From IMG/VR virus record IMGVR_UViG_2537562173_000012: a DNA stretch of 12,009 nt, one strand, 5' to 3'. The number at the start of each line of letters is the position of its first letter. The stretch's first letter is position 1. This DNA is from a virus. Its lineage: Duplodnaviria > Heunggongvirae > Uroviricota > Caudoviricetes. This document shows positions 1 to 12,009 of this stretch, one piece after another. A program made the position numbers and the translations under genes. Below the pieces are notes generated by a model that searched no databases, was not told the DNA's origin, and was given only the letters and a program-made list of their open reading frames with translations.

Positions 1-180
1 AACCTGACGAGAGACGTCACCAAGGCAAGCCCAAAGCTTTCGATTCTGGTCTAAGCTGCGGTTGCGTTCCTGAATGGTTACTACGATTGGTTTGGTTGGG
101 TCTGGAAGGATTTGCTGTACTGCGTGAATAGCGTTTTGCTGATGTGCCGGAGATCGAATTTCAAAGGTTAGTTTTTTCAT
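1..180 (-). CDS. ninB: NinB-like recombination protein, N-terminal part (gene runs off the window start)
   Basis: Minus-strand ATG at 178-180 with a GAGGGAAG Shine-Dalgarno just upstream. Translation MKKLTFEIRSPAHQQNAIHAVQQILPDPTKPIVVTIQERNRSLDQNRKLWACLGDVSRQV is open to position 1 and matches my recollection of the lambda NinB N-terminus. Confidence 0.8.
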   Translation of the reverse strand, partial: MKKLTFEIRSPAHQQNAIHAVQQILPDPTKPIVVTIQERNRSLDQNRKLWACLGDVSRQV

Positions 181-385
181 GACTTCCCTCTCTAACAGAT
201 TTCAGGTTATTCCACTCCGTTACCGCACTGCGATAATTCGCGGCCACCACAGCAGCGTGGTTAGCGCAGTAGATTTGGCACCCGTTCTCCATGTCGAATA
301 TTGTCGGTGATTTTCCGCATTTACATTTTTTGGCACGCGGTGCGTCTGAACACATTCCGTTAACGGTGTCCATCAGGATCACCAT
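161..385 (-). CDS. Hypothetical small Cys-rich protein between helicase and ninB (NinA position)
   Basis: 74-aa ORF in the track with five Cys (C-x8-C-x-C ... C-x3-C), suggesting a possible zinc-binding fold. Its end overlaps the ninB start. Start is ambiguous (ATG 385 or ATG 373) and the SD is weak. Confidence 0.45.
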   Translation of the reverse strand: MVILMDTVNGMCSDAPRAKKCKCGKSPTIFDMENGCQIYCANHAAVVAANYRSAVTEWNNLKSVREGSHEKTNL

Positions 386-400
386 CGTTCTTAATCCAAT

Positions 401-428
401 AAAAAAGGGCTACTGTGTAAATAGCCCC
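401..428 (-). terminator. Candidate intrinsic terminator downstream of the helicase gene
   Basis: On the minus-strand transcript GGGCUA / UAGCCC form a 6-bp stem with a roughly 9-nt loop, followed by a U-run (plus-strand AAAAAA at 401-406). Lies between the helicase stop (455) and the next ORF. Confidence 0.4.
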
Positions 429-454
429 TGTTATTAGCTCAGTGACGTAGATGG

Positions 455-1831
455 TCATACGTCCGCCCCTTGTGCATATCGTCTGCCACGCGCAGCAGGC
501 GCATTTGATGCTGTGCAAATCTGTCTGGCTTCATCCTGGTCACATGCAACAAAGTGTCCGTTGCAGAACCGCTGGTAAACCGTACCAAGTGAGCCAAAAC
601 GGTTTTTCGTCACAATGATTTCAGCAAATGGCGCGGCGCTACTGTTCTCGTCATATACCGCTTCCCGATAGAGCATGATGATTGAGTCTGCGTCCTGTTC
701 AATGCTTCCTGAATCACGCAAATCTGCGTTTGTCGGGCGTTTGTTTGGTCGCTTCTCAACATCGCGTGAAAGCTGACTTAGGGAGATAACAGGCGTTTTC
801 AGGTCTTTCGCCATCGCCTTAAGGCTTCCTGAGATGTGGGCAATTGCGAGGTCGTTGCGATCTGCTTTCGGCTTCTCAATCAGGCCAAGATAATCCGCCA
901 TGATGAGTGACAGGTTTGGATTTTCCTGTTTGTGTCGTTCTGCGATTGAGCGTATTTCTTCGACCGATAACCGCGAGGCATCGACTACCCATACATCCAA
1001 ATCTGCAAGCTGACTCATGCCGTTAGCAACACGCGCCCAGCCTTCGTCATCCATCGATGCAGGATTTCGCAGTACGCTAACCGACATCCTCCCGGCGTTG
1101 GCAATGCTTCGCTCTGCAATCTGCAATGCGCTCATTTCCATTGAGAAAATCAATACCCCGCGCCGGACGTCAGAACCAGGAATAACGCGGCTTGCAACGC
1201 CTTCGGCAATCTTCAGCGCCAGCTCGGTTTTCCCCATACCAGGACGAGCAGCGATTATCACCAGGTCTTCTGCGTTCATCCCTCCGGTGATGGCATCAAG
1301 TTCTTCGATTCCGGTCTTCAGGGTATCGGACTCTTCTCCGTTCCTCAGACGCCTGTCAAGCGTGTCAGTGTAGTCAGTAATGATTTCCCCTAACCGTACA
1401 GGTTTAACCTCGTCACGGGGCTTTCTGATGGCTGAAAGACGCTTTACAAGCTCATCCATCGCCTGACTCGATGCGTCGATGGTTCCGCTCTGAATTGGTT
1501 CACGCATTTCATCCATGATTTCCAGCACCAGACGGCGGTGATAGTTATCCGCGACCATTCCGGCATATCCCTTCAGGTTTGCGGCACTCGGGCAGTTTTT
1601 GCTGGTCATCAGGATTGCGGTGAAATGCTCCTCTCCGCACGCCTCGGCAACCATCAGCGCGTCGATTAGGTTTCTGTTTCTCGCCTGCTTGCGAATAACC
1701 TCGAAGGCTTTCCGGTAGAGCGGAATTGAAAACGCTTCCGGCTCCAGCGTTGCAAGAACGTCACTGGCGGTTGGAGTTAATCCACCAATCAGCAGGCCAC
1801 CGATAACGCTCGCTTCGATATCCTGTCTCAT
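455..1831 (-). CDS. DnaB-family replicative DNA helicase (phage P22 gene 12-like)
   Basis: 458-aa ORF with a Walker A-like GMGKT motif and overall DnaB-like C-terminal ATPase layout. Start ATG overlaps the stop of the upstream O-like gene (ATGA). Same length as the P22 gp12 helicase as I remember it. Confidence 0.9.
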
Positions 1832-2658
1832 GCAATCCCCCTGTCTGCAAACTTCCCTTCCCGAACTCCCGTTAACGAGTCTTCTCTCAGCAGGTAATCA
1901 AAATCAGCCGTCCAGCCCGTGTCGTTGTCTCCGAAGTAAAACGGCTTGGCCTGATGCACAAACGCCCTGACATACGCTCTGAAACCGTCCACATTTGGCG
2001 TTTTCAGTTGTGGGATGATTTTCTTCAGGCGGCGTTTGCGCTTCTCGTTGACCGCAACAGCGTGTGGCAGTCTGTCACCGACTTCGGTGTTGTAGGCGTT
2101 CAGGAAGGATTCATAGTCGATTCGTTCTGCCTTGCGACGTTCAGGTTTAACCTGCCCATCGCCGCCCCCGTTAGGGGGTAAGGGGGTATTTGTATTTATT
2201 GTCTTTTGTATATTGTCTTTTGTGTTTGACTGATTCGGTAAATTGCTTTTTACCGATTTGGTGAAGGTTTGTTTTACCGAATTGGTAAATGTTTTACCGA
2301 ATCCGTTAACTTTCGTTTTCCACTCGGAAATGTTTGTATTCATACCAACTTGACGCCCCACCTGAATGAGAACTCCCATTCTGATAAGCTCGTTTTTGGC
2401 GGTAGAGCATTTGGTTGGTGCCATGCCAGTGAGTTCAGCGAACTGTTCGTTTCCGATCCAATCTATTTTTTTGTTGTAACCGTATGTCTTGCGCCACACA
2501 GCCATAACAATCAGTAACTGATGTGCAGTAAGCCCAGAAAGCATGGCGGCTTCTAACAGTGTGTTTGCAGTCCGAGTGTAGCCATCTTCGAGTTCTGCCA
2601 CGCGATGCTCCACGACCTCCAGTTGAGGCCTGTAATCAGCTAACTTAACGACGCCCAT
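1828..2658 (-). CDS. Replication initiator, lambda O / P22 gp18-like
   Basis: 276-aa ORF with AGGAG SD 6 nt before the ATG at 2656-2658. N-terminal region resembles lambda O (DGYTR..N.LLEA motif). The central linker is encoded by the iteron repeats, and a repeat-encoded [15 protein letters not shown] is visible in the protein. Confidence 0.85.
2173..2300. repeat. Origin of replication: iterons embedded in the O-like gene
   Basis: Tandem AGGGGGTA x2 (2173-2188), TATTGTCTTTTGT x2 (about 2197-2223), and three TTTTACCGA copies (2248-2256, 2272-2280, 2292-2300) interleaved with inverted TCGGTAAA / TTGGTAAA copies. This is the classic lambdoid ori arrangement inside the initiator gene. Confidence 0.7.
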
Positions 2659-2806
2659 GTTTCACTCCTGCTTTTGCTAGTCTGTAAACACCAACAAGGC
2701 GCTCTGCGAACGCCCTGTTATTTGCTGCGGCTACCACTAATCCCTCAGGTGAATCAGGGTGTCGAATCTCTTCTTTTTCCTGGTATTTCTTACGACGTTT
2801 TGTCAT
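2645..2806 (-). CDS. Hypothetical small basic protein between cII and the O-like gene
   Basis: 53-aa ORF ([53 protein letters not shown]) not in the ORF track because it is under 60 aa. AGGAG SD 5 nt before the ATG at 2804-2806; its 3' end overlaps the O-like start by 14 nt. Confidence 0.4.
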   Translation of the reverse strand: MTKRRKKYQEKEEIRHPDSPEGLVVAAANNRAFAERLVGVYRLAKAGVKHGRR

Positions 2807-2838: not shown

Positions 2839-3135
2839 TCAGAATTGCATATCAATTTGCTCAGAATCCTCGGTGGCAGCCGGGGATTTTTTCTTTGTGA
2901 TTCCATCCAATGCATACTTAAAAGCCCTGCTAATCGGACTGATGTCTGATGCCATTCCGAAAGCACACAAGACCGAAGCAATAAATCTCCAGTCCGTTCT
3001 GCTTATCTTCGATTCATGACAGCCAATCATCTTTGCCAGACCGCGCTGGGTAAGCGTTGACAGGTTGATGAGTAAATCAGTTTCTGCGCGATCAATTTCT
3101 CGCTGTGTTGGCTTGCTGTAACTTGCTTGTGTCAT
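2839..3135 (-). CDS. cII: CII-like transcriptional activator
   Basis: 98-aa ORF with a helix-turn-helix region and a C-terminus KKSPAATEDSEQIDMQF that parallels lambda CII (RPAATERSEQIQMEF from memory). Sits immediately downstream of cro as in lambda, but the sequence is clearly diverged from lambda CII. Confidence 0.85.
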   Translation of the reverse strand: MTQASYSKPTQREIDRAETDLLINLSTLTQRGLAKMIGCHESKISRTDWRFIASVLCAFGMASDISPISRAFKYALDGITKKKSPAATEDSEQIDMQF

Positions 3136-3145
3136 TTCTTAATAT
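3113..3145 (+). promoter_or_regulatory. PRE-like CII-dependent promoter (TTGC-N6-TTGC) directed toward cI
   Basis: TTGC at 3113-3116 and 3123-3126 separated by 6 nt, inside the first codons of cII. A TAATAT -10-like hexamer follows 17 nt after the inter-repeat hexamer. This is the lambda PRE layout. Confidence 0.5.
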
Positions 3146-3220
3146 TTCCAATAGTGAATAGTTAGTTGAAAGGTATGCGTGGAAACGCATATGGCCTTAG
3201 TTGGTCAGATATATTGGGAC

Positions 3221-3235
3221 TCGCTTTGTCAGCGA
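3221..3235 (-). promoter_or_regulatory. nutR boxB hairpin (GACAA loop)
   Basis: Minus-strand RNA reads UCGCU GACAA AGCGA (5-bp stem, 5-nt loop), between cro and cII. It has the same loop and the same CUACG 5' flank as the hairpin downstream of PL. Confidence 0.6.
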
Positions 3236-3273
3236 CGTAGGACGAATGTCCATTGTGAAAATAGCGGTGTTAC

Positions 3274-3483
<210 letters not shown>

Positions 3484-3498
3484 TTAGTACATGCAACC

Positions 3499-3567
3499 AT
3501 TATCACCGCCAGAGGTAAAATAGTCAACACGCACGGTGTTAGATATTTATCCCTTGCGGTGATAGAT
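3499..3567. promoter_or_regulatory. OR1-OR2-OR3 operators with divergent PR (minus) and PRM (plus)
   Basis: OR1 TATCACCGCCAGAGGTA at 3501-3517, OR2 3525-3541 and OR3 3548-3564 are the lambda 17-bp operator sequences. PR -10 GATAAT and -35 TTGACT read on the minus strand (plus coordinates 3499-3504 and 3522-3527). PRM -35 TAGATA (3540-3545) and -10 TAGATT (3562-3567) give a leaderless cI mRNA starting at the ATG at 3575. Confidence 0.9.
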
Positions 3568-3571
3568 TTAA

Positions 3572-4288
<717 letters not shown>

Positions 4289-4295
4289 CACGTAA

Positions 4296-4733
4296 ATGAT
4301 TAAAGAACGTATTTCTTATATCATTCCGATTGCGATGGATGAAGGCAACCCAGTAACTCCAGTTCTTATCTATGAAATGGATAAAGACTCCCATGAAGTG
4401 GATCTATCATTTGGCGCTTTTTTTATCGGCCTTAAGGCTACAAAAAAATATTCCATAGGCATTGAGGTTTTCAATGCTCAAGAAATACCGATACCAATTG
4501 ACACAAAACTGTACTCCAACCATAAGTTTTTTACGGTAGCAGAAGCCAACGATGGAGAAACCATCGTATCAACTTCTATGAGAATTAACTTCCCAAGGGT
4601 GAAAATTATCAAGCCTGGGATATTCGAAGTTAGAGCATCACTGGTTAATCCTGATAAAGGCGAAGTAATTGATGTAAAAAGTTCGTTTTTTGACGTGAAG
4701 ATAACAGGATCAGTTCGCGATGAGTTTAGATAA
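4296..4733 (+). CDS. Hypothetical protein, first gene of a cassette in the rexA/rexB position
   Basis: 145-aa ORF starting 8 nt after the cI stop on the same strand, with no obvious SD (possible coupling to cI). It does not resemble RexA, no catalytic motif was recognised, and the stretch looks more A+T-rich than its neighbours by eye. Confidence 0.6.
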   Translation: MIKERISYIIPIAMDEGNPVTPVLIYEMDKDSHEVDLSFGAFFIGLKATKKYSIGIEVFNAQEIPIPIDTKLYSNHKFFTVAEANDGETIVSTSMRINFPRVKIIKPGIFEVRASLVNPDKGEVIDVKSSFFDVKITGSVRDEFR

Positions 4734-4839
4734 CAAGGTTGCTCAGCTTCGTCCAAATCAAAACATATCTCGCCCAATTGGACACTATTCCACTGATGAT
4801 GCATACTCACGGCATGGTGGAGGAAACGGCGGAGGTAAC

Positions 4840-5091
4840 ATGCTTGAGGCTAGAGTTGCAAAGCTAGAGTCTGATGTTGAATACATCAAGCGCGATCTCG
4901 CTGAAGTAAAGTCAGATATAAAATCTGTAGATTCTCGTCTGTCAGGTATTGAGACAAGCATTAGCTCAGCAAAAATCACCATCAAGGCATCTGCGGTCGT
5001 TGTCAGTTTCGTGTTCGCATTTTGCGCCTACATTTTTGGAAGTTATGTTTCCAAAATCCTTGATGCCTTAAACGGACTCGTTCTTAAGTAA
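4840..5091 (+). CDS. Hypothetical small membrane protein (coiled-coil plus C-terminal TM helix), second gene of the cassette
   Basis: GGAGG SD at 4831-4835 before the ATG at 4840 gives an 83-aa product. The same frame is open from ATG 4720, giving the 123-aa form in the ORF track. Heptad-like LEARVAKLESDVEYIKRDLAEVKSDIKSV is followed by a hydrophobic stretch AVVVSFVFAFCAYIFGSYV. A terminator follows directly. Confidence 0.55.
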   Translation: MLEARVAKLESDVEYIKRDLAEVKSDIKSVDSRLSGIETSISSAKITIKASAVVVSFVFAFCAYIFGSYVSKILDALNGLVLK

Positions 5092-5098
5092 CACACAA

Positions 5099-5124
5099 CC
5101 CGGCCTCAGCGCCGGGTTTTCTTT
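5099..5124 (+). terminator. Intrinsic terminator ending the cI-cassette transcript
   Basis: CCCGGC (5099-5104) pairs with GCCGGG (5111-5116) around a 6-nt loop, followed by TTTTCTTT. Confidence 0.7.
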
Positions 5125-5281
5125 ACCTCACGATCCCCTTCACCCAATAACACATAACCAATTGTATTTATTTGAAAATTAATAGATACAACTCACTAAA
5201 CATCGCAATTCAGATCTCTCGATCACCTCCCAAGCCACACACCCCTGCAAAAAAATAAATCTATATAAAAAACATACAGAT

Positions 5282-5344
5282 AACCATCTGCGGTGATAAA
5301 TTATCTCTGGCGGTGTTGACATAAATACCACTGGCGGTGATACT
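5282..5344 (+). promoter_or_regulatory. OL3-OL2-OL1 operators and the PL promoter
   Basis: OL3 at 5282-5298, OL2 at 5302-5318 and OL1 at 5326-5342 match the lambda operator consensus. PL -35 TTGACA (5316-5321) and -10 GATACT (5339-5344) are 17 bp apart. Confidence 0.9.
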
Positions 5345-5412
5345 AAACACATCAGCAGGACGCACTACTCACCAGTGCGGTGAATATACAACGATTCAAG
5401 CAAGAATCTACG

Positions 5413-5427
5413 GCGCTGACAAAGCGC
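5413..5427 (+). promoter_or_regulatory. nutL boxB hairpin (GACAA loop, P22 type)
   Basis: GCGCT GACAA AGCGC is a perfect 5-bp stem with a 5-nt loop, about 70 nt downstream of PL. It matches the P22-type boxB I recall and differs from the lambda GAAGA/GAAAA loop. Confidence 0.6.
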
Positions 5428-5592
5428 AATAACCAAAGTGAACTTTGGGGTGTGGTGAAGGATTCATGGACGGGAATATGTCGCACGTAAAGCGGCGAGG
5501 CCTGCGGGACTATTGCCGAATTGAAGTAGGCCGAAACAGGTCGAAATGGGTCTCCCACCTACCACACCACCAAAGTTCATCAGGAGGTCTAT

Positions 5593-5976
5593 ATGACACG
5601 CAGAACTCAGTTCAAAGGCAATTCACGTTCTCGTCGTCGTGAGCGTTTAAAGGCAAAGGCATTAGCTAACGGCGTACTGGCCCGCGAAGAAGCAATAAGT
5701 TCAGAAGTATTACACCGCCCTACTCTAAGCAGAGCGCAGATTCAGGCTAAAGGTACTCACGAAACGCCTGAGCGCATAGAAGACGCTAAGCCAATTAAGT
5801 TCATAGCACAGGACGTGATCTGGCAACAGAAAGAATACAGACGCAATCTGGAGCGAGCGGCCATTGTGTACGCGAATGAGTTTGGACATAAGCAACCAGA
5901 AACTGGTGTATGTCTTCCAAACGTAGCCATTTACGCGGCAGGCTACCGGAAATCAAAACAACTGACGGCGAGGTAA
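5593..5976 (+). CDS. N: N-like transcription antitermination protein (P22 gp24-like arginine-rich motif)
   Basis: 127-aa ORF with AGGAGG SD 5 nt before the ATG. N-terminal arginine-rich motif NSRSRRRERLKAKALA. First gene downstream of PL and nutL. C-terminus VAIYAAGYRKSKQLTAR resembles what I recall of P22 N. Confidence 0.8.
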   Translation: MTRRTQFKGNSRSRRRERLKAKALANGVLAREEAISSEVLHRPTLSRAQIQAKGTHETPERIEDAKPIKFIAQDVIWQQKEYRRNLERAAIVYANEFGHKQPETGVCLPNVAIYAAGYRKSKQLTAR

Positions 5977-5978
5977 TT

Positions 5979-6371
5979 ATGGGTCAGGAAGAAAAATATG
6001 AGCTTAAAAAGCTCATTGGAGAAGACGCCATAGAAGAAATTGCAGCATTAACAACAGCTATAAAGAATATTAGGTATGCGCTAAATACGCTTATCTCCTC
6101 ATGCGACAAAAATAGCAGGGAATTTTTGATACTTGGCGCAGCTCTAGGAATAGTTGATGCGGCAACGCTTCACCTAATTACTCATGACGATATTCTTATT
6201 GAGCCGTATGAAACATTACTGCTTGTCAGGCAAAAAATGGCTGATGCCGCAGCAAATGGAGACCTTCAACTTTACATCGACTTAAGGAAAGTATTAAGGC
6301 GAATGGTCAGAACTGAAGGAGATATCCCCCTGAACGATGCTAAACAAGGCATACAAGCAAAGCTGGAATGA
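5979..6371 (+). CDS. Hypothetical protein (accessory gene downstream of N)
   Basis: 131-aa ORF from the ATG at 5979, 2 nt after the N stop, with a GAGGT SD. The ORF track shows an upstream TTG-initiated extension that I consider unlikely. Confidence 0.6.
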   Translation: MGQEEKYELKKLIGEDAIEEIAALTTAIKNIRYALNTLISSCDKNSREFLILGAALGIVDAATLHLITHDDILIEPYETLLLVRQKMADAAANGDLQLYIDLRKVLRRMVRTEGDIPLNDAKQGIQAKLE

Positions 6372-6430
6372 CCTTATCCTGATGAAGTATCGAAAGCACA
6401 GTCAGCAATTAGCAAAGCTCTTGGGGAAGA

Positions 6431-6592
6431 ATGATGAATAAGAAATACATTGTTGAAGTTATAGATCGAGAAACGAAAGAAGTAATTAAACATTTCGAAT
6501 TTGATAATTATAGAAAAGCTGACCGCGTCGAAGAAGGATTGTTGCGACAAAGTAATCTCGAAAAATTTTATGTTGTCATGCGATGCGAATAA
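6431..6592 (+). CDS. Hypothetical small protein
   Basis: 53-aa ORF (MMNKKYIVEVIDRETKEVIKHFEFDNYRKADRVEEGLLRQSNLEKFYVVMRCE) with a GGGGAAG SD. It is below the track's length cutoff. Confidence 0.45.
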   Translation: MMNKKYIVEVIDRETKEVIKHFEFDNYRKADRVEEGLLRQSNLEKFYVVMRCE

Positions 6593-6724
6593 GCGCCTAT
6601 AGCAGATTTACGAGTCTGCTATGTGAGCAATGTCGCTCGTAACTAAACAGGAGCCGACTTGTTCTGATTATTGGAAATCTTCTTTGCCCTCCAGTGTGAG
6701 GGCGATTTTTTTAACGGAGGAAAT

Positions 6725-7693
6725 ATGAGTGAAGTAACAGATTTAGTTGTTATTGAAAAAGCAAATGCAATGACTGTATTTCAGTCTGCCGACCAGATTG
6801 AAGAAATCCTTCAAAAGGTTGAACGTGAAGTTATGTCCTTTGTTCCTGATATCACAACGGCAAGGGGCAGAAAGGAGATCGCTTCTCTGGCGTATAAAGT
6901 TGCGCAGACGAAAACATATCTCGATGGTCTTGGCAAAGACCTTGTTGCTGAACTGAAGGAAATTCCAAAGCTAATTGATGCTAACCGCAAGACAGTGCGT
7001 GATCGCCTTGATGAGCTGAAAGCCAAGGCGCGCCAGCCTCTTACTGATTATGAGGAGGAGCAGGCACGGATTAAAGCCGAAGAAGAAGCTAAGGCAGCAG
7101 CCGAAGCTCTCGCAAAGCAAATTGAGTCTGACCATGAAATAGCGATTTTGATGGATCGCGAATTTGACCGCCAAAGAGAAGAGGCAAGACTCAAAGCGGA
7201 GCAGGAAAAGCGAGAGCATGAAGAACGCTTAAAAAGAGAAGCTGAAGAGAAAGCCAGAGCAGAAGCCGAAGCAAAGGCAAAAGCCGAAATTGAAGCAGCA
7301 GCAAGGCGAGAAGCAGAAGCTAAGGCCGCAGCGGAACGTGCAGAGCGTGAACGCATTGAAGCCGAGCAACGAGCACAGCGCGAAGCAAAAGAGGCAGCAG
7401 AACGAGCTGAAAGAGAAAAGCAGGCAGCAATTGAAGCAGAACGCCGAAAAGCACAGGAGGAGGCAGAACGAATCCGGCGCGAGGCTGAAGCAAAAGAGCA
7501 AGCCAGAATAGCAGAAGAAAAAAGAATCAAGGACGAAGAAGAGCGTAGAGCAAAGGATAAAGCTCACCGGAAAGAAGTAAATAACAAAATACTTGCTGAC
7601 CTTATCAAGGTTGGTGCATCAGAAGATGTTGCTAAAAATATCATAACAGCCATCGTAAAAGGCGAAGTATTCGCAACAAAAATAACCTACTAA
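6725..7693 (+). CDS. Hypothetical protein with a long E/K/A/R-rich coiled-coil central domain (TolA domain II-like composition)
   Basis: GGAGG SD 5 nt before the ATG at 6725; 322 aa. Residues about 110-290 are almost entirely Glu, Lys, Ala and Arg in EAEAKAKAE-type repeats, flanked by ordinary N- and C-terminal domains. Confidence 0.75.
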   Translation: MSEVTDLVVIEKANAMTVFQSADQIEEILQKVEREVMSFVPDITTARGRKEIASLAYKVAQTKTYLDGLGKDLVAELKEIPKLIDANRKTVRDRLDELKAKARQPLTDYEEEQARIKAEEEAKAAAEALAKQIESDHEIAILMDREFDRQREEARLKAEQEKREHEERLKREAEEKARAEAEAKAKAEIEAAARREAEAKAAAERAERERIEAEQRAQREAKEAAERAEREKQAAIEAERRKAQEEAERIRREAEAKEQARIAEEKRIKDEEERRAKDKAHRKEVNNKILADLIKVGASEDVAKNIITAIVKGEVFATKITY

Positions 7694-7717
7694 TAAAACC
7701 AACATAAGGAACCACCC

Positions 7718-7849
7718 ATGATTTACGCAATCGCGGGAGGCGCTCGCATGGGTGCCTTCCAACTAAATGAATCTTTACTTGAACGAATCACCCGTAAATT
7801 ACGTGACGGATGGAAAAGAGTTGAGGTCTTATTATGCGCAATGAAATAG
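7718..7849 (+). CDS. cIII: CIII-like protein (FtsH inhibitor that stabilises CII)
   Basis: 43-aa ORF with an AAGGA SD. Its core ESLLERITRKLRDGWKR matches the conserved amphipathic helix of lambda CIII as I recall it. Confidence 0.7.
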   Translation: MIYAIAGGARMGAFQLNESLLERITRKLRDGWKRVEVLLCAMK

Positions 7850-7986
7850 CCATCAATCACCAGATGCTTCGTGCAGCGCAAAACAAAGCAGTAATAGCCA
7901 GATTTATTGGTGATTCAAAAATGTGGCTTGAAGCAAATAAAGCGATGAAATCAGCTATCAACCTTCCGTGGTATCGCAGGAAATGA
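7834..7986 (+). CDS. kil: Kil-like small protein (host cell-division inhibitor family)
   Basis: 50-aa ORF with a GAGG SD, overlapping the cIII 3' end by 16 nt, in the position of kil. It contains ARFIGDSKMWLEA, which resembles the lambda Kil motif I recall. The call is tentative. Confidence 0.5.
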   Translation: MRNEIAINHQMLRAAQNKAVIARFIGDSKMWLEANKAMKSAINLPWYRRK

Positions 7987-8061
7987 GTTTTACAGATAAC
8001 TGGTCAGACGAAGAATTCATTCGTCAGATGAAAGAATTAATCGGTAACGAAGGAGATATTC

Positions 8062-8232
8062 ATGTCACTTGCAACCACAGTGAAGGAGAGCAAGTTACAG
8101 AGACGCATGTACACGCAGAAAGCTCTCTGGTATCGCCATAATGGTGACCGCGAAGGAATGCGGGTATGCCTTAATTTGTCCCGAGTCGAAGTATTAAATC
8201 AGCGTTATTTCCTTGGGCCGTGTCCATTCTGA
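8062..8232 (+). CDS. Hypothetical small basic protein upstream of erf (Arf position)
   Basis: 56-aa ORF with a strong AAGGAG SD 6 nt before the ATG at 8062; stop 10 nt before the erf start. A competing ORF at 7983-8141 in another frame overlaps it. Confidence 0.35.
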   Translation: MSLATTVKESKLQRRMYTQKALWYRHNGDREGMRVCLNLSRVEVLNQRYFLGPCPF

Positions 8233-8242
8233 GAACAATCAT

Positions 8243-8848
8243 ATGAGCAAAGAATTTTACGCAAGACTGGCAGCTATTCAGGAGAATCTGAACGCGCCAA
8301 AGAATCAGTACAACTCATTCGGCAAATATAAATACAGAAGCTGCGAAGATATTCTTGAAGGCGTTAAGCCGTTACTGAATGGTCTGTTTTTATCAATCAG
8401 CGATGAAGTTGTGTTGATTGGTGATCGGTATTACGTGAAAGCCACGGCAACTATTACCGATGGTGAAAACAGTCATACGGCAACCGCTCTTGCACGAGAG
8501 GAAGAAAGCAAGAAAGGAATGGATTCTGCACAAGTTACGGGAGCTACAAGCTCTTATGCACGCAAGTATTGCCTCAATGGTTTGTTCGGCATTGATGATG
8601 CGAAAGATGCAGATACCGACGAGCATAAACATCAGCAGAACGCAGCAGCAAAGCAATCAAAACCATCACCTACACCTGAACAGGTTCTAAAAGCATTCAC
8701 TGACGCAGCATTGCAGAAAAACACCGTAGAAGAGCTTAAACAGGCGTTCGCCAAAGCGTGGAAGATGCTCGAAGGCACACCGGAGCAGCACAAAGCGCAG
8801 GACGTTTACAACATCAGACGAGACGAATTAGAAGGAGCGGCTGCTTAA
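8243..8848 (+). CDS. erf: Erf-family single-strand annealing recombinase (P22 Erf-like)
   Basis: 201-aa ORF. N-terminus [45 protein letters not shown] matches my recollection of P22 Erf. The TTG-initiated extension in the ORF track was rejected. Confidence 0.85.
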
Positions 8849-9297
8849 TGGCACATTCGATTACTGTAAGACTAAACAAGCCCGCAAGAGAGTTTCAGTA
8901 CGGGGAAAATATCGGATTCAACATCCGTGCTGGCGTTCAGTATTACGATCGCCAGACAAAAAAGAAAGAATGGACAAACTACAGCGCCGTTGTATTTGCC
9001 AAGCCGGGAGCGCAAGCGGATTACTATCGTAGCGTTCTGGTTGAAGGAGGCATTGTAGAAATTACCGGAGAAAACATCAGGGTTGATGTTTATCAGGGGC
9101 AAAATGGTCAATCAATCACTCTTGAATTACTGAAGCTGGCGCTGCGTGAAGAGCTGAAAGATGAGCTGGAAATCGTAATGCGCGTCTATTTTGAAAAGCC
9201 GCGTACCACGGTGGGCTGGAAAGGGCTGATTAACGATCCGCATATGGATAACAGCTTCCAGATCAACGACGGTCTGCGTATCGGAGGTGCTGGATAA
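8848..9297 (+). CDS. Putative OB-fold ssDNA-binding (SSB-like) protein
   Basis: 149-aa ORF coupled to erf (TAATG overlap) with a GAAGGAG SD. The pattern [33 protein letters not shown]...QGQNGQ resembles the SSB OB-fold signature. It lies directly after the recombinase. Confidence 0.5.
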
Positions 9298-9322
9298 ATT
9301 CAGAAAAAACTACGATCGAATA

Positions 9323-9520
9323 ATGTCTCTACCGCAGGAAACGAAAGAGGAAAAGGAATTTCGCCACTGTATATGGCTTGCAGAGAAAGAAGAACGCGAG
9401 CGAATTTACCAGACATCAATCCGACCATTCCGCAAAGCCACATATACCCACTTCCCTGAATATATCGACCCGCGCCTGCGTAATTACCGCTCACGCTATG
9501 GCGCTATCAGTAATGACTGA
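9323..9520 (+). CDS. Hypothetical small protein
   Basis: Frame open from GTG 9287 (the track's start), but the SD there abuts the start codon. The first ATG is at 9323 and has no clear SD. Weak initiation signals either way. Confidence 0.35.
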   Translation: MSLPQETKEEKEFRHCIWLAEKEERERIYQTSIRPFRKATYTHFPEYIDPRLRNYRSRYGAISND

Positions 9521-9614
9521 GGAATTTACCATGAGAGGACTTGCTTAAGAGAAAGAGTTTCGGTTCTGTTAATGACAACAAATATCTGAATGCGATGTGG
9601 CGGAGTGGGAAGAA

Positions 9615-10076
9615 ATGAAACAAATGTCACTAATTGAGATGGATGGTTTTCTGAAAGGTAAATGCATCCCAAGTGATTTAAAGGTTAACGAAACAAACGC
9701 TGAATACCTTGTCCGTAAGTTCGGTGAACTTGAATCAAAACTGGAAACGGCGTTGCGGGAGTGTAGTTCTGCTGGAATCACGATTGATAACCTTGAGGCT
9801 AAATGCGCGAAGATGGCTGCTGAAAATACCTCACTTAAGCAATCTGAGAAGGAATTTAATGACTTTTGTCGTGAGGAGTTTAGCGAATGGGAAGATGATG
9901 TTACTGAAACCCCAGCCACCGACGCATTCCTGGCTGAAATTGAACGCAAAGCAATCCGAAAGTTCATTAACAGCATTGAACACATCCTGCGTGACAAGCT
10001 GTCTCCGTATGACACCGAAGAGATGCTTGAGGCTATGCGTATTTTTCTGGAAGAACAGGGAGGCGAGCAAAAATGA
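9615..10076 (+). CDS. Hypothetical acidic protein
   Basis: 153 aa from the ATG at 9615 with a GGAG SD; the track's GTG 9597 start is less likely. Coiled-coil-like and rich in Glu/Asp. Confidence 0.6.
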   Translation: MKQMSLIEMDGFLKGKCIPSDLKVNETNAEYLVRKFGELESKLETALRECSSAGITIDNLEAKCAKMAAENTSLKQSEKEFNDFCREEFSEWEDDVTETPATDAFLAEIERKAIRKFINSIEHILRDKLSPYDTEEMLEAMRIFLEEQGGEQK

Positions 10077-10390
10077 CGATCACAAAACAACGTGTAGAAG
10101 AAATCATATCCCGCATTGAAATGTATGGGCATGGTGCAGGGTATACCGCTGACGAGGTTTATGACCTAGCTGTACTGGCGCTGAATTTATCAAATATCGC
10201 AAACCTCAAGCGATACGAGCTTGATATGGATGGTTGTGACTCGTTCGGTCAGGATTGTGGCGCTGACATGACTGAAGATTCTGATGGCGATTATGTCCTG
10301 TTTGATGACGTGGTTAAGTTGTTTGAGTTTGATACAACCACTCAGAAGTTCGAAAGCCCAGCAAAGGAGGCAGCCAGTGAGCAAGATTGA
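10073..10390 (+). CDS. Hypothetical highly acidic small protein
   Basis: 105 aa; ATG overlaps the upstream stop (ATGA) with a GGGAGG SD. The C-terminal half is very Asp/Glu-rich (DMDGCDSFGQDCGADMTEDSDGDYVLFDD). Confidence 0.6.
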   Translation: MTITKQRVEEIISRIEMYGHGAGYTADEVYDLAVLALNLSNIANLKRYELDMDGCDSFGQDCGADMTEDSDGDYVLFDDVVKLFEFDTTTQKFESPAKEAASEQD

Positions 10391-10949
10391 CTATCAGGCA
10401 CTGCGTGAGGCGGCGGAACGTGCAATTCCAGCAATGGAACGCCTGTTAATGTTGCCAGTTGATGATGATTTGTTAAGTGAACAGGAACTTAAGGATTACG
10501 GTGTGGATATTGATGCGCTCAACGCCTTCAAATTTCTGACCGGACCAGAAACCGTGCTGGCGCTGCTGGATGAACGGGAAAGAAACCAGCAATACATCAA
10601 ACGCCGCGACCAGGAGAACGAGGAAATTGCGCTAACGGTAGGGAAGCTGCGCGTTGAGCTGGAAGCTGCAGAGAAGCGCATTGCAGAACTGGAAGCCGAA
10701 CCTGTAAGCCAAACTTACAAGTTGAACGAGCTGTCGGGCAACTATCCGGTAACTCCGGATGGTTGGATAAGCTGTAGTGAGCGAATGCCCGCTCAAGATG
10801 ATTGGATTTTAATTTATTCAAAGCACGGCGAGTATATGGCAGGACAGGTACAAGGGGAATACGTGGAGTTGAGCGACGGCACTTTATCGTGGTTAGGGAA
10901 CGCCTTGTACTGGATGCCTCTACCGGAACCGCCGCAGGAGGTTAATTGA
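10377..10949 (+). CDS. Hypothetical protein with a DUF551-like C-terminal domain
   Basis: GTG start at 10377 with an AAGGAGG SD 6 nt upstream; 190 aa. The track's ATG at 10284 lacks an SD and overlaps the previous gene. C-terminal W.PLPEPP-type ending (LYWMPLPEPPQEV) is typical of phage DUF551 proteins as I recall; a central coiled-coil is present. Confidence 0.55.
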   Translation: MSKIDYQALREAAERAIPAMERLLMLPVDDDLLSEQELKDYGVDIDALNAFKFLTGPETVLALLDERERNQQYIKRRDQENEEIALTVGKLRVELEAAEKRIAELEAEPVSQTYKLNELSGNYPVTPDGWISCSERMPAQDDWILIYSKHGEYMAGQVQGEYVELSDGTLSWLGNALYWMPLPEPPQEVN

Positions 10950-11143
10950 TGGTCTCCTTCGCGAAATATACGATTATTGACTGGATAGCATTCATTCAGG
11001 TTTTGCTCATCTGGTTTTATATGGCTTACAGGAGTGGACAGTGGATTGTCAGTGTAGCCTGTAGCAATGGATGGCGTTGGTGGAACCGAAAGAATAAAAA
11101 AAGCGCTGGCCTTGGCTTCGTTTTACGAAGCATTCAATCTTAA
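10949..11143 (+). CDS. Hypothetical small membrane protein
   Basis: AGGAGG SD 7-8 nt before the ATG at 10949, which overlaps the upstream stop (TGATG). 64 aa with one strongly hydrophobic segment IIDWIAFIQVLLIWFYMAY and a basic tail. Confidence 0.5.
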   Translation: MVSFAKYTIIDWIAFIQVLLIWFYMAYRSGQWIVSVACSNGWRWWNRKNKKSAGLGFVLRSIQS

Positions 11144-11226
11144 CAGTCTTCAGCCTGGTTCTGTCGTTGTAGTCACCACTCAAAGCGGCATGACGATACA
11201 AATTCACAAGCCAAAGGAGGAAGGTC

Positions 11227-11511
11227 GTGGCTAACCTGCAACTTGCCGTTAAAGGTGAATACTTCGATGCCATGATTCGCGGAGAGAAAACGGAAGAGTA
11301 TCGCCTGTGTAATGACTACTGGAATAAGCGAATTATGTTCCGCGAGTATGACCGCCTGATTATCACAAAGGGATATCCGAAGCGCGACGATTCCAGCCGC
11401 AGAATTGACGTCCCGTATGACGGATATGAAATCAAGACAATCACACATCCGCACTTCGGCGATAAACCGGTAAAGGTGTTCGCTATAAAGGTGAATATCG
11501 ACAATGAATGA
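11227..11511 (+). CDS. Hypothetical protein, possibly ASCH/PUA-like
   Basis: GTG start with an AGGAGG SD 6 nt upstream; 94 aa. The N-terminal pattern L.LAVKGEYFDAMIRGEKTEEYR resembles ASCH-domain openings. The functional call is weak. Confidence 0.5.
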   Translation: MANLQLAVKGEYFDAMIRGEKTEEYRLCNDYWNKRIMFREYDRLIITKGYPKRDDSSRRIDVPYDGYEIKTITHPHFGDKPVKVFAIKVNIDNE

Positions 11512-11583
11512 TAATCCTCGCACTCGCGGGGATTTCTTTTATCTGAACTCGCTACGGCGGGTTTTGTTTTATGGAGATGATAA

Positions 11584-11751
11584 ATGCACTTCCGAGTCAC
11601 AGGTGAATGGAATGGAGAGCCATTCAACAGAGTTATCGAAGCAGAGAACATCAACGACTGCTATGACCACTGGATGCTGTGGGCGCAGATAGCACATGCA
11701 GACGTAACTAATATTCGAATTGAAGAACTGAAAGAACACCAAGCCGCCTGA
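11584..11751 (+). CDS. Hypothetical small protein
   Basis: 55-aa ORF (MHFRVTGEWNGEPFNRVIEAENINDCYDHWMLWAQIAHADVTNIRIEELKEHQAA) with a GGAGA SD 6 nt upstream. Its stop lies inside the terminator stem. Preferred over the overlapping track ORF 11504-11692, which lacks an SD. Confidence 0.4.
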   Translation: MHFRVTGEWNGEPFNRVIEAENINDCYDHWMLWAQIAHADVTNIRIEELKEHQAA

Positions 11752-11764
11752 TGGCGGTTTTTTA
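11743..11764 (+). terminator. Intrinsic terminator upstream of the excisionase-like gene
   Basis: CCGCC (11744-11748) pairs with GGCGG (11753-11757) around a 4-nt loop, followed by TTTTTT. Confidence 0.6.
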
Positions 11765-11808
11765 TTGCCTGATTTGCAGGTTCGATTCCCTATTCGGAGA
11801 TAGCACTC

Positions 11809-12009
11809 ATGCAACACGAACTACAACCTGATTCACTGGTTGATTTGAAATTCATCATGGCCGATACTGGCTTCGGTAAAACCTTCATCTATGACCGGAT
11901 TAAGTCCGGCGACCTGCCAAAAGCCAAAGTTATCCACGGGCGAGCAAGATGGTTATATCGTGACCATTGTGAATTCAAAAATAAGCTCTTAAGCCGCGCC
12001 AATGGGTAA
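11809..12009 (+). CDS. xis: Excisionase-like small DNA-binding protein (not lambda-Xis type)
   Basis: 66-aa ORF with a GGAGA SD. It is the last gene of the PL-direction operon, and its stop is the last base of the window. Small basic protein with an HTH-like segment; it does not match lambda Xis as I recall it. The call rests mainly on position and size. Confidence 0.5.
   Translation: MQHELQPDSLVDLKFIMADTGFGKTFIYDRIKSGDLPKAKVIHGRARWLYRDHCEFKNKLLSRANG

What the first reader, a model, noticed from the sequence alone, without database searches (positions are those of the whole stretch)
5400..5430. Matched nutL/nutR boxB hairpins with a GACAA loop and shared CUACG flank
GCGCUGACAAAGCGC at 5413-5427 downstream of PL, and UCGCUGACAAAGCGA on the minus strand at 3221-3235 downstream of cro, share the same loop and are both preceded by CUACG. 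This predicts that the N-like protein at 5593-5976 has P22-type boxB specificity, even though the flanking repressor and operators are lambda-type. No clear lambda-like boxA (CGCUCUUA) was found at the expected distance upstream of either hairpin.
Basis: partly seen in the sequence, partly recalled or inferred. Interest (0 to 1): 0.45.

Follow-up and report, generated by a model that had tools for sequence, protein, structure and literature searches.

The report
H-19B-type nutL/nutR antitermination sites
The two matching hairpins are the well-known nutL and nutR landing sites for the phage's N antitermination protein. They are the same as in Shiga-toxin phages H-19B and 933W, here joined to a lambda immunity region, so the feature is real but ordinary and already described.

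Summary
GCGCUGACAAAGCGC (5413-5427, +) and UCGCUGACAAAGCGA (3221-3235, -) both follow CUACG, both fold as a 5-bp stem with a GACAA loop, and a shared match is not expected by chance (0 in 200 shuffles). They lie where nutL and nutR should: after PL and before N, and between cro and cII.

The window's nutR is base-for-base that of phages H-19B and 933W. Its nutL differs from theirs only in the loop of a spacer hairpin plus one base. The N protein is 97-99% identical to H-19B, HK97 and 933W N. GenBank records for 933W and mEp234 already annotate these sites, and H-19B N with nutR is an established experimental system. The pairing with lambda immunity (cI 235/237, Cro 66/66) is common: 30 of 89 related loci.

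The nutL boxB equals the P22 nutL boxB 15/15. In a sample of viral contigs, that exact boxB sits upstream only of P22-like or H-19B-like arginine-rich motifs. The "P22-type boxB" reading therefore holds, although the N motif is a separate lineage (8/20 identical to P22).

The shared CUACG is the end of a conserved, covarying spacer hairpin plus a UACG linker. nutR carries a boxA variant (CGCUAUUUU); nutL has none.

Verdict: already known.

The parts
5316..5344 (+). PL promoter (TTGACA, 17 nt spacer, GATACT), embedded in lambda-identical OL1-OL3
   Evidence: Promoter scan. The OL region is identical to lambda.
5351..5363 (+). Start of the PL transcript (AUCAGCAGGACGC), conserved in lambda, P22, H-19B and VT2-Sakai
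   Evidence: Alignment A6. The +1 position is taken from homology and from the annotation in EF120460.
5361..5369 (+). CGCACUACU, annotated as 'putative nutL boxA' in the mEp234 and 933W records. It is probably not a true boxA, because lambda has CGCACUGAC at the same place and that is not lambda's boxA.
5370..5382 (+). Small hairpin CACC-AGUGC-GGUG, present in lambda (CACC-AUGAA-GGUG) and in all relatives. The window-specific T5376 also allows an alternative hairpin, CGCACU/AGUGCG (5361-5379).
5384..5391 (+). AUAUACAA, the position homologous to lambda nutL boxA (CGCUCUUA). No boxA is recognisable here.
   Evidence: Alignment A6. There is no match to CGCTCTTTA at 2 or fewer mismatches between PL and boxB.
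5393..5408 (+). nutL spacer hairpin GAUUC-AAGCAA-GAAUC (the H-19B-type spacer dyad)
   Evidence: Fold. The arms are invariant and the loop variable in 89 loci. Covariation with VT2-Sakai GUCGA/UCGAC and with nutR GGAC/GUCC.
5409..5412 (+). Invariant UACG linker between the spacer hairpin and boxB
   Evidence: Invariant in all 15 distinct nut variants.
5413..5427 (+). nutL boxB GCGCU-GACAA-AGCGC
   Evidence: Identical to the P22 nutL boxB and to the H-19B and 933W nutL boxB.
5438..5580 (+). N-leader long-range helix: 5438-5456 pairs with 5561-5580 and ends 1 nt before the Shine-Dalgarno AGGAGG (5582-5587). It is the analogue of the lambda N-leader RNase III stem.
   Evidence: Folds. The helix is kept, with compensatory changes, in 8 leaders that have unrelated interiors.
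5593..5976 (+). N antitermination protein, 127 aa, with ARM residues ~9-26 (GNSRSRRRERLKAKALAN)
   Evidence: Pfam N_peptide, E = 2.8e-15. 96.8% identical to H-19B N, 97.6% to HK97 N and 99.2% to 933W N.
6684..6705 (+). Intrinsic-terminator-like hairpin followed by a T7 run, downstream of N. It is a candidate tL terminator that N-modified polymerase must read through (inferred).
   Evidence: Terminator scan.
3499..3527 (-). PR promoter within lambda-identical OR
3274..3474 (-). cro, 66/66 identical to lambda Cro
3258..3266 (-). nutR boxA variant CGCUAUUUU, at the same offset from the cro stop codon as lambda's CGCUCUUA. It is polymorphic in the population (CGCUCUUUU in other phages).
   Evidence: Annotated as nutR boxA in mEp234 and included in the 933W nutR feature.
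3240..3251 (-). nutR spacer hairpin GGAC-AUUC-GUCC
   Evidence: Fold. Conserved across the family, with a GGGC (G.U) variant. [quoted passage not shown]
3236..3239 (-). Invariant UACG linker
3221..3235 (-). nutR boxB UCGCU-GACAA-AGCGA
   Evidence: Identical to the H-19B and 933W nutR boxB.
3175..3190 (-). Hairpin AUGCG-UUUCCA-CGCAU between nutR and cII, in the tR1 region. Its role is inferred; tR1 of H-19B is described as Rho-dependent and overlapping nutR.
   Evidence: Sequence. Identical in H-19B. PMC3526286.

Best explanation
These are the nutL and nutR N-utilisation sites of an H-19B/933W/HK97-type antitermination module, recombined next to a lambda immunity cassette.

Proposed mechanism:
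- Transcripts from PL and PR each carry, in order, a degenerate or variant boxA position, a short spacer hairpin, a UACG linker and a boxB hairpin (5-bp stem, GACAA pentaloop).
- The arginine-rich N terminus of the 127-aa N protein encoded just downstream of nutL binds the boxB loop.
- The N-boxB complex, together with NusA (and NusG), stays tethered to the elongating RNA polymerase through N's C-terminal region. This makes the polymerase resistant to Rho-dependent tR1 and to downstream terminators, which switches on the delayed-early genes.

What is shown here: the positions, sequence identity, folds and covariation of the RNA elements; the family of the N protein; and the co-occurrence of this boxB with this ARM type.

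What comes from the literature on the identical H-19B nutR: N-dependent antitermination that depends on the ARM, and protection of the spacer and boxB, but not boxA, by N plus NusA/NusG.

What is inferred: that this particular copy is active, and that boxA and NusB/S10 are dispensable, as reported for H-19B.
For: - Exact matched hairpins occur at the canonical nut positions and are not expected by chance.
- nutR is identical over about 113 nt to H-19B nutR and to the 933W nutR feature.
- nutL is identical to H-19B and 933W nutL except for the spacer-hairpin loop and one base.
- N matches Pfam N_peptide and is 97-99% identical to H-19B, HK97 and 933W N.
- GenBank records EF120460 (mEp234) and AF125520 (933W) annotate the same elements as nutL/nutR boxA and boxB.
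- boxB is invariant in 89 nutL loci and in about 78 GACAA-class nutR loci.
- Both hairpins show compensatory changes across 15 distinct nutL/nutR variants: 99.3% of cells are paired, 7 of 10 pairs change on both sides, and slid controls give 20-46% paired.
- The exact boxB co-occurs only with P22-like or H-19B-like ARMs. Sister N proteins with other ARMs have other loops: GAAA in epsilon34 and VT2-Sakai, GAAAA with lambda-like ARMs.
- Experiments on H-19B N and nutR report a two-hairpin nutR, protection of the spacer and boxB by N+NusA/NusG, no protection of boxA, and ARM- and CTD-dependent antitermination (PMC3526286; PMC4499122).
Against: No experiment was done on this copy. The ARM is only 8/20 identical to P22's, against 6/18 to lambda's, so the mode of loop recognition cannot be read from the sequence alone. 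nutL has no recognisable boxA. The nutR boxA differs from CGCUCUUU at position 5, and a 2-mismatch boxA match is no rarer than chance in this window (38 found, 39 expected), so its identification rests on positional homology only. The primary paper on host-factor independence (Neely & Friedman 2000) could not be read here; only its title was verified.
Confidence: 0.92

Rival explanations
1. The N protein binds the GACAA boxB but not in the P22 manner. The H-19B-type ARM would be an independent solution, so P22 gp24 and this N would not be interchangeable despite the identical nutL boxB. In that case 'P22-type specificity' holds only for the RNA target, not for the recognition code.
For: ARM identity to P22 is 8/20, barely above the 6/18 to lambda. 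The P22 residues reported to contact the extruded C (His and Arg; PMC12550061) align with Arg and Lys here. nut architecture also differs: P22 has a canonical boxA CGCUCUUUA 11 nt upstream of boxB in nutL and no spacer hairpin.
Against: The Gly-Asn cap and the RR-ER core are shared. The exact 15-nt boxB is found with only these two ARM groups. The substitutions are conservative (Ser/Ala, Arg/Lys, Ser/Thr, Arg/His).
Confidence: 0.3
2. The system is boxA- and NusB/S10-dependent like lambda. On this view CGCUAUUUU in nutR, and a cryptic boxA in nutL (CGCACUACU, as annotated in GenBank), are functional NusB-NusE binding sites.
For: The nutR variant sits at the exact positional homologue of lambda boxA. 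Sibling phages carry CGCUCUUUU. GenBank annotators marked both sequences as putative boxA.
Against: The nutR boxA is polymorphic among phages with essentially identical N proteins: CGCUAUUUU in 45 loci, CGCUCUUUU in 31, CACUCUUUU in 2. More distant relatives have no boxA-like sequence there. The positional homologue in nutL is AUAUACAA. No RNase H protection of boxA was seen in N-modified complexes (PMC3526286). [quoted passage not shown] From my own recollection of its abstract, NusB, S10 and BOXA are not required.
Confidence: 0.12
3. The matched hairpins are chance or purely structural features, for example part of a Rho-loading or terminator region with no role in N binding.
For: In H-19B, nutR overlaps the tR1 rut region, and Rho footprints on the spacer (PMC3526286).
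Against: Zero chance expectation for the shared 19-mer. The same element occurs in both early operons. It is invariant across about 170 sites and covaries with ARM class. Published footprints show N-dependent protection of boxB.
Confidence: 0.02

Closest known systems
Phage H-19B (and 933W) NUTL/NUTR sites with H-19B N (Neely & Friedman 1998, 2000; Plunkett et al. 933W record AF125520)
   Same: nutR is identical from the cro stop through boxA variant CGCUAUUUU, spacer hairpin GGACAUUCGUCC, UACG, boxB UCGCUGACAAAGCGA and the tR1-region hairpin. nutL is the same except for the details listed under 'different'. N is 96.8-99.2% identical.
   Different: The nutL spacer-hairpin loop is AAGCAA here, against GAAUAU in H-19B and 933W. 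One base differs upstream (T5376, where others have G). The interior of the N leader differs from H-19B's but equals that of mEp234 and HK97. The flanking immunity region is lambda's, not that of H-19B or 933W.
Lambda-immunity wild phages mEp234 and HK106 (Degnan et al. 2007, GenBank EF120460/EF120461) and PhiR5_2
   Same: The same mosaic: lambda cI, cro, OL and OR joined to an H-19B-type N, nutL and nutR. PL through N is 97.9-98.5% identical. boxA and boxB are annotated in the records.
   Different: mEp234 has CGCUCUUUU in the nutR boxA and AGAGAU in the nutL spacer loop. The genes in the rex position differ: hicAB plus one ORF in mEp234, and two ORFs of unknown function here.
Salmonella phage P22 nutL/nutR and gp24 (solved N peptide-boxB complex, PDB 1A4T)
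   Same: The nutL boxB GCGCUGACAAAGCGC is identical 15/15. P22 nutR also has the GACAA loop. The C-terminal 20 aa of N are similar, and the N leader has the same layout (boxB, then a CCAAA hairpin and long-range stem).
   Different: P22 has a canonical boxA CGCUCUUUA, 11 nt upstream of boxB in nutL, and no spacer hairpin or UACG. Its nutR stem differs (CCGCC/CGCGG). gp24 is 100 aa and matches the window's N at 44 identical positions in a global alignment (127 aa vs 100 aa). The ARM is 8/20 identical.
Phage lambda nutL/nutR and N
   Same: The same genomic positions, the same offset of nutR boxA from the cro stop, the same start of the PL transcript, the small CACC/GGUG hairpin before nutL boxA, and a 5-bp stem with a G...A pentaloop as boxB.
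   Different: Lambda boxB is GCCCU-GAAGA/GAAAA-AGGGC. Lambda has an 8-nt unstructured spacer and a canonical boxA at both sites. N shares 35 identical positions with the window's N in a global alignment (127 aa vs 107 aa), and lambda's Trp18 has no counterpart here.

Membership tests
Lambdoid N-utilisation (nut) sites | One site in each early operon: downstream of PL and upstream of N, and between cro and cII | tested here: met
   PL 5316-5344, boxB 5413-5427, N 5593-5976. On the other strand: cro 3274-3474, boxB 3221-3235, cII 2839-3135.
Lambdoid N-utilisation (nut) sites | boxB: a short G+C-rich stem (5 bp) closed by a purine-rich G...A pentaloop | tested here: met
   Folds. Covariation in the stem: pair 1 occurs as U-A, G-C, A-U and C-G, and pair 2 as C-G and G-C.
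Lambdoid N-utilisation (nut) sites | A cognate N protein with an N-terminal arginine-rich motif | tested here: met
   Pfam PF25694 at E = 2.8e-15. ARM sequence GNSRSRRRERLKAKALAN.
Lambdoid N-utilisation (nut) sites | boxA (CGCUCUU(U)A) 5' of boxB | tested here: inconclusive
   nutR has the variant CGCUAUUUU at the positional homologue, but a match of that quality is no rarer than chance. nutL has AUAUACAA at the positional homologue, which is not a boxA.
Lambdoid N-utilisation (nut) sites | N-dependent terminator readthrough | not testable with these tools
   Shown in the literature for the identical H-19B nutR (PMC3526286, PMC4499122).
H-19B/933W/HK97-type NUT | Dyad symmetry (hairpin) in the spacer between boxA and boxB | tested here: met
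   GAUUC...GAAUC (5393-5408) and GGAC...GUCC (3251-3240). Both fold and covary.
H-19B/933W/HK97-type NUT | boxB sequences GCGCUGACAAAGCGC (L) and UCGCUGACAAAGCGA (R), each preceded by UACG | tested here: met
   Identical to H-19B and 933W.
H-19B/933W/HK97-type NUT | A 127-aa N of the H-19B type | tested here: met
   96.8-99.2% identity.
H-19B/933W/HK97-type NUT | Independence from NusB, S10 and boxA | not testable with these tools
   Only indirect support: boxA polymorphism, literature footprints and the title of Neely & Friedman 2000.
P22-type nut | GACAA pentaloop on a GCGCU/AGCGC stem | tested here: met
   nutL is 15/15 identical to P22 nutL boxB.
P22-type nut | P22-type ARM (GNAKTRRHERRRKLAIER) | tested here: inconclusive
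   8/20 identical, with the GN cap and the RR-ER core shared. This is a separate ARM group that co-occurs with the same boxB.
P22-type nut | Canonical boxA a short way (11 nt in nutL) upstream of boxB, with an unstructured spacer | tested here: not met
   Here the spacer is 21-22 nt and contains a hairpin, and nutL lacks a boxA.

The most novel reading that the evidence does not exclude
The spacer hairpin and the invariant ACAAY and UACG flanks are under purifying selection for structure. Three unrelated stem sequences keep perfect pairing across nutL and nutR of many phages. Yet, by my recollection of Neely & Friedman 2000, the H-19B dyad was dispensable in reporter assays. The evidence does not exclude that this module has a role of its own that reporter assays missed. 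It could be a NusA or Rho docking or insulating element that replaces boxA-NusB/S10 in this N family. Alternatively, it could act as a folding guard that keeps boxB from mispairing.
Probability: 0.2. Interest if true: 0.35.

Novelty: already known. Interest (0 to 1): 0.08.

Why it matters
It matters little for discovery. The finding correctly recognises the N antitermination sites of a very common E. coli prophage module, present in 579 of 5,426 complete genomes, which also controls early gene expression in Shiga-toxin phages. Its value is for annotation. It shows that the lambda immunity cassette ends precisely at the PL start and at the cro stop codon, that nut and N belong to the H-19B type, and that the same P22-type GACAA boxB serves two different ARM lineages.

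Tried and rejected
- An Rfam scan of 3000-6100 at E <= 1 found no nut or boxB family; the only hit was a spurious miRNA match.
- Sequence searches of the PDB with the whole N and with the ARM peptide found nothing relevant. The P22 and lambda N peptides are too short or too divergent.
- Scanning for boxA by consensus was uninformative: 38 hits against 39 expected. boxA was therefore assessed by positional homology instead.
- A plain MAFFT alignment of the nut sites put the loops out of register. It was replaced by an N-padded, hand-registered alignment, which leans towards the tested structure. This caveat applies.
- Neely & Friedman 2000 (PMID 11123680) and a guessed DOI for a P22 boxB mutagenesis paper were not held in the library. 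Literature searches for 933W plus boxB found nothing.
- I considered whether C-UACG-G in nutL forms a UNCG tetraloop hairpin. I rejected this because only one closing pair is possible, and nutR has C...U there.
- I considered whether the annotated nutL 'boxA' CGCACUACU is real. I judged it unlikely because lambda carries the near-identical CGCACUGAC at the same place, upstream of its true boxA.

Full report
**Observation.** The window is inverted relative to the usual lambda map. cII (2839-3135), cro (3274-3474) and PR lie on the minus strand. cI (3575-4288), PL (5316-5344) and an N gene (5593-5976) lie on the plus strand. Both are preceded by CTACG. The shared 19-nt pattern occurs twice in the window and never in 200 shuffles. 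Each folds as a 5-bp stem with a GACAA pentaloop.

**Context.** cI is 235/237 and Cro 66/66 identical to lambda, and OL1-3 and OR1-3 are identical to lambda's. Homology to lambda stops a few bases into the PL transcript on one side and at the cro stop codon on the other. cII matches lambda cII at only 37 identical positions in a global alignment (98 aa vs 97 aa), and N matches lambda N at 35 (127 aa vs 107 aa). N matches Pfam PF25694 (N_peptide) at E = 2.8e-15. It is 96.8% identical to H-19B N, 97.6% to HK97 N and 99.2% to 933W and many Stx-phage N proteins.

**Identity of the element.**
- The nutR region, from the cro stop through boxB and the following hairpin (about 113 nt), is identical to H-19B. 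It is also identical to the feature annotated 'nutR; putative N-utilization rightward' in the 933W record AF125520.
- The nutL region equals the H-19B and 933W nutL apart from six loop bases of a spacer hairpin and one upstream base.
- The mEp234 immunity-region record EF120460 belongs to the study of wild phages with lambda immunity (Degnan et al. 2007, reference confirmed). It has the same mosaic and annotates nutL and nutR boxA and boxB at the homologous positions.
- H-19B N with H-19B nutR is a standard experimental antitermination system. The literature describes two hairpins in nutR. N plus NusA/NusG protects the spacer and boxB but not boxA, and activity depends on the ARM and the C-terminal domain (PMC3526286; PMC4499122).

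The feature is therefore already known.

The shared CUACG is not a free-standing motif. It is the last base of a spacer hairpin plus an invariant UACG linker. The hairpin is GAUUC-AAGCAA-GAAUC at 5393-5408 in nutL and GGAC-AUUC-GUCC at 3251-3240 in nutR.

Across 89 nutL and about 90 nutR copies from phage records and viral contigs, the hairpin arms and UACG are constant. The nutL loop varies: GAAUAU, AAAUAU, AAGCAA, AGAGAU, AGUGAU and AAACAU. The window's variant occurs in six other contigs. VT2-Sakai-type phages use a different stem (GUCGA/UCGAC) at the same place.

I built a hand-registered alignment of 15 distinct nutL and nutR variants. In it, 99.3% of cells pair and 7 of 10 pairs show changes on both sides, while slid controls give 20-46% paired. 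The registration was made with the structure in mind, so the numbers lean towards it. The pair types themselves are unambiguous. This is the 'dyad symmetry in the spacer' of H-19B NUT sites. The title of Neely & Friedman 2000 was verified; the details of that paper are from my own recollection.

**boxA.**
- In nutR, CGCUAUUUU (3266-3258) starts at the same offset from the cro stop as lambda's CGCUCUUA.
- Sibling phages have CGCUCUUUU at that position. Among GACAA-class loci the split is about 45 with A, 31 with C and 2 with CACUCUUUU. More distant relatives have nothing boxA-like there.
- As a bare pattern, a 2-mismatch boxA is no rarer than chance in this window.
- In nutL, the positional homologue of lambda's boxA is AUAUACAA at 5384-5391.
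- The CGCACUACU that GenBank records mark as putative boxA also exists in lambda (as CGCACUGAC), upstream of lambda's real boxA. It is therefore doubtful.

This relaxed boxA fits the reported reduced host-factor requirement of H-19B N. That requirement was not tested here.

**P22-type specificity.** The nutL boxB equals the P22 nutL boxB 15/15, and P22 nutR also has a GACAA loop. The ARM (FKGNSRSRRRERLKAKALAN) is 8/20 identical to P22's and 6/18 to lambda's, so the ARM sequence alone does not decide the question. Co-occurrence is more informative:
- Among 119 viral contigs containing the exact 15-mer, an N-like ORF was found downstream in 82. About 31 carried the H-19B-type ARM, about 50 carried P22-type ARMs (GNAKTRRHERRRKLAIERD and close variants), and one was probably a mis-called start.
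- N proteins of the same family with other ARMs have other loops. RRRERRAALQ (epsilon34, S107, Si3 and Enterobacter phages) and RRRARRANLQ (VT2-Sakai) go with a GAAA tetraloop. Lambda-like ARMs with Trp go with GAAAA.

Whether P22 gp24 and this N are interchangeable remains untested.

**Mechanism (best explanation).** N is translated from the PL transcript. Its ARM binds the GACAA boxB of nascent nutL and nutR RNA. With NusA (and NusG) it remains attached to RNA polymerase through its C-terminal region, CLPNVAIYAAGYRKSKQLTAR, which is shared with P22 gp24. This makes the polymerase resistant to tR1 (Rho-dependent and overlapping nutR) and to downstream terminators, such as the candidate at 6684-6705.

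The positions, folds, conservation and covariation are shown here. Binding and antitermination are taken from published work on identical sequences. Activity of this particular copy is inferred.

**Commonness.** The nutL-leader segment is found in 579 of 5,426 complete E. coli genomes. Thirty of the 89 nutL loci have lambda OL1 immediately upstream, so the lambda-immunity/H-19B-N mosaic is itself frequent.

**Verdict.** This is a correct and careful reading by the first stage of an element that is already annotated and experimentally characterised. Interest is low.

Noticed in passing
window 5438-5456 with 5561-5580 (N leader, + strand): A 19-bp long-range helix encloses a ~100-nt interior and ends 1 nt before the N Shine-Dalgarno sequence. 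The same helix forms in 8 relatives whose interiors are unrelated, with compensatory changes in its inner half (for example GGGGUGUGGUG/CACCACACCACC, GGGAUGCGAUG/CAUCGCAUCACC, GGUGAAUGCAG/CUGUAUUCACC). It competes with a local hairpin, CCAAAG-UGAA-CUUUGG (5433-5448). It is probably the analogue of the lambda N-leader RNase III site, which controls translation.
   Followed up: partly
window 4296-4733 and 4720-5091 (+): Two ORFs (145 and 123 aa) occupy the position of lambda rexA and rexB, between cI and the Timm-like terminator (5097-5118). They match PHROG 5893 and PHROG 6136, both of unknown function. The second has a weak XhlA/hemolysin-like coiled-coil match and a hydrophobic C terminus. 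There is no convincing PADLOC defence hit. mEp234 carries hicAB at this position instead.
   Followed up: partly
window 5376 (+): A T where all 88 other nutL loci have G (CCAGTGCGG here, CCAGGGCGG or CCAGGACGG elsewhere). It creates a 6-bp alternative hairpin, CGCACU/AGUGCG, that exists only in this window.
   Followed up: partly
window 3262 (-), and loci L001-L107: Position 5 of the nutR boxA is polymorphic among phages with near-identical N proteins: A in about 45 loci (including this window, H-19B and 933W), C in about 31, and CACUCUUUU in 2.
   Followed up: yes
L006, L007, L008, L010, L011, L013, L014 (nutL and nutR): A sister class of the same N family has boxB hairpins with a true GAAA tetraloop (for example UCGCU-GAAA-AGCGA and AGGCU-GAAA-AGCCU), behind the same spacer-hairpin and UACG module. 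It includes epsilon34, S107, Si3, VT2-Sakai and Enterobacter prophages. Their ARMs differ from this window's (RRRERRAALQ and RRRARRANLQ).
   Followed up: partly
L005 (Salmonella phage vB_SosS_Oslo): Its nutL boxB is unusual: GCUC-CGUCAAC-GAGC, with a C.C mismatch like P22 nutR. Its nutR is UCGCU-GACAA-GGCGA, with a U.G pair. Its ARM differs from the window's at two positions.
   Followed up: no
L015-L027 and L110-L225: N proteins are modular. The C-terminal CLP.VA(I/L)(Y/F)AAG(H/Y)RK...TAR module is joined to at least eight different ARM types (P22-like, lambda-like, phage-21-like and others). P22-like ARMs are also joined to lambda-like ...GKSIPLI C termini. boxB follows the ARM, not the C terminus.
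   Followed up: partly
window 1-2800 and 6000-12009; L108: The flanks (replication genes O and P, the nin region, and the early-left operon with erf) are about 99% identical to the P22-like E. coli K1 phage CUS-3, which has a different immunity region and a different N. The window is therefore a mosaic of a CUS-3-like backbone, lambda immunity and an H-19B-type N/nut module.
   Followed up: partly
L012, L014, L018: Contigs labelled Xanthomonas pisi and Segatella copri (a MAG) carry these enterobacterial phage N genes at 95-98% identity. They are most likely contamination or mis-binning.
   Followed up: no
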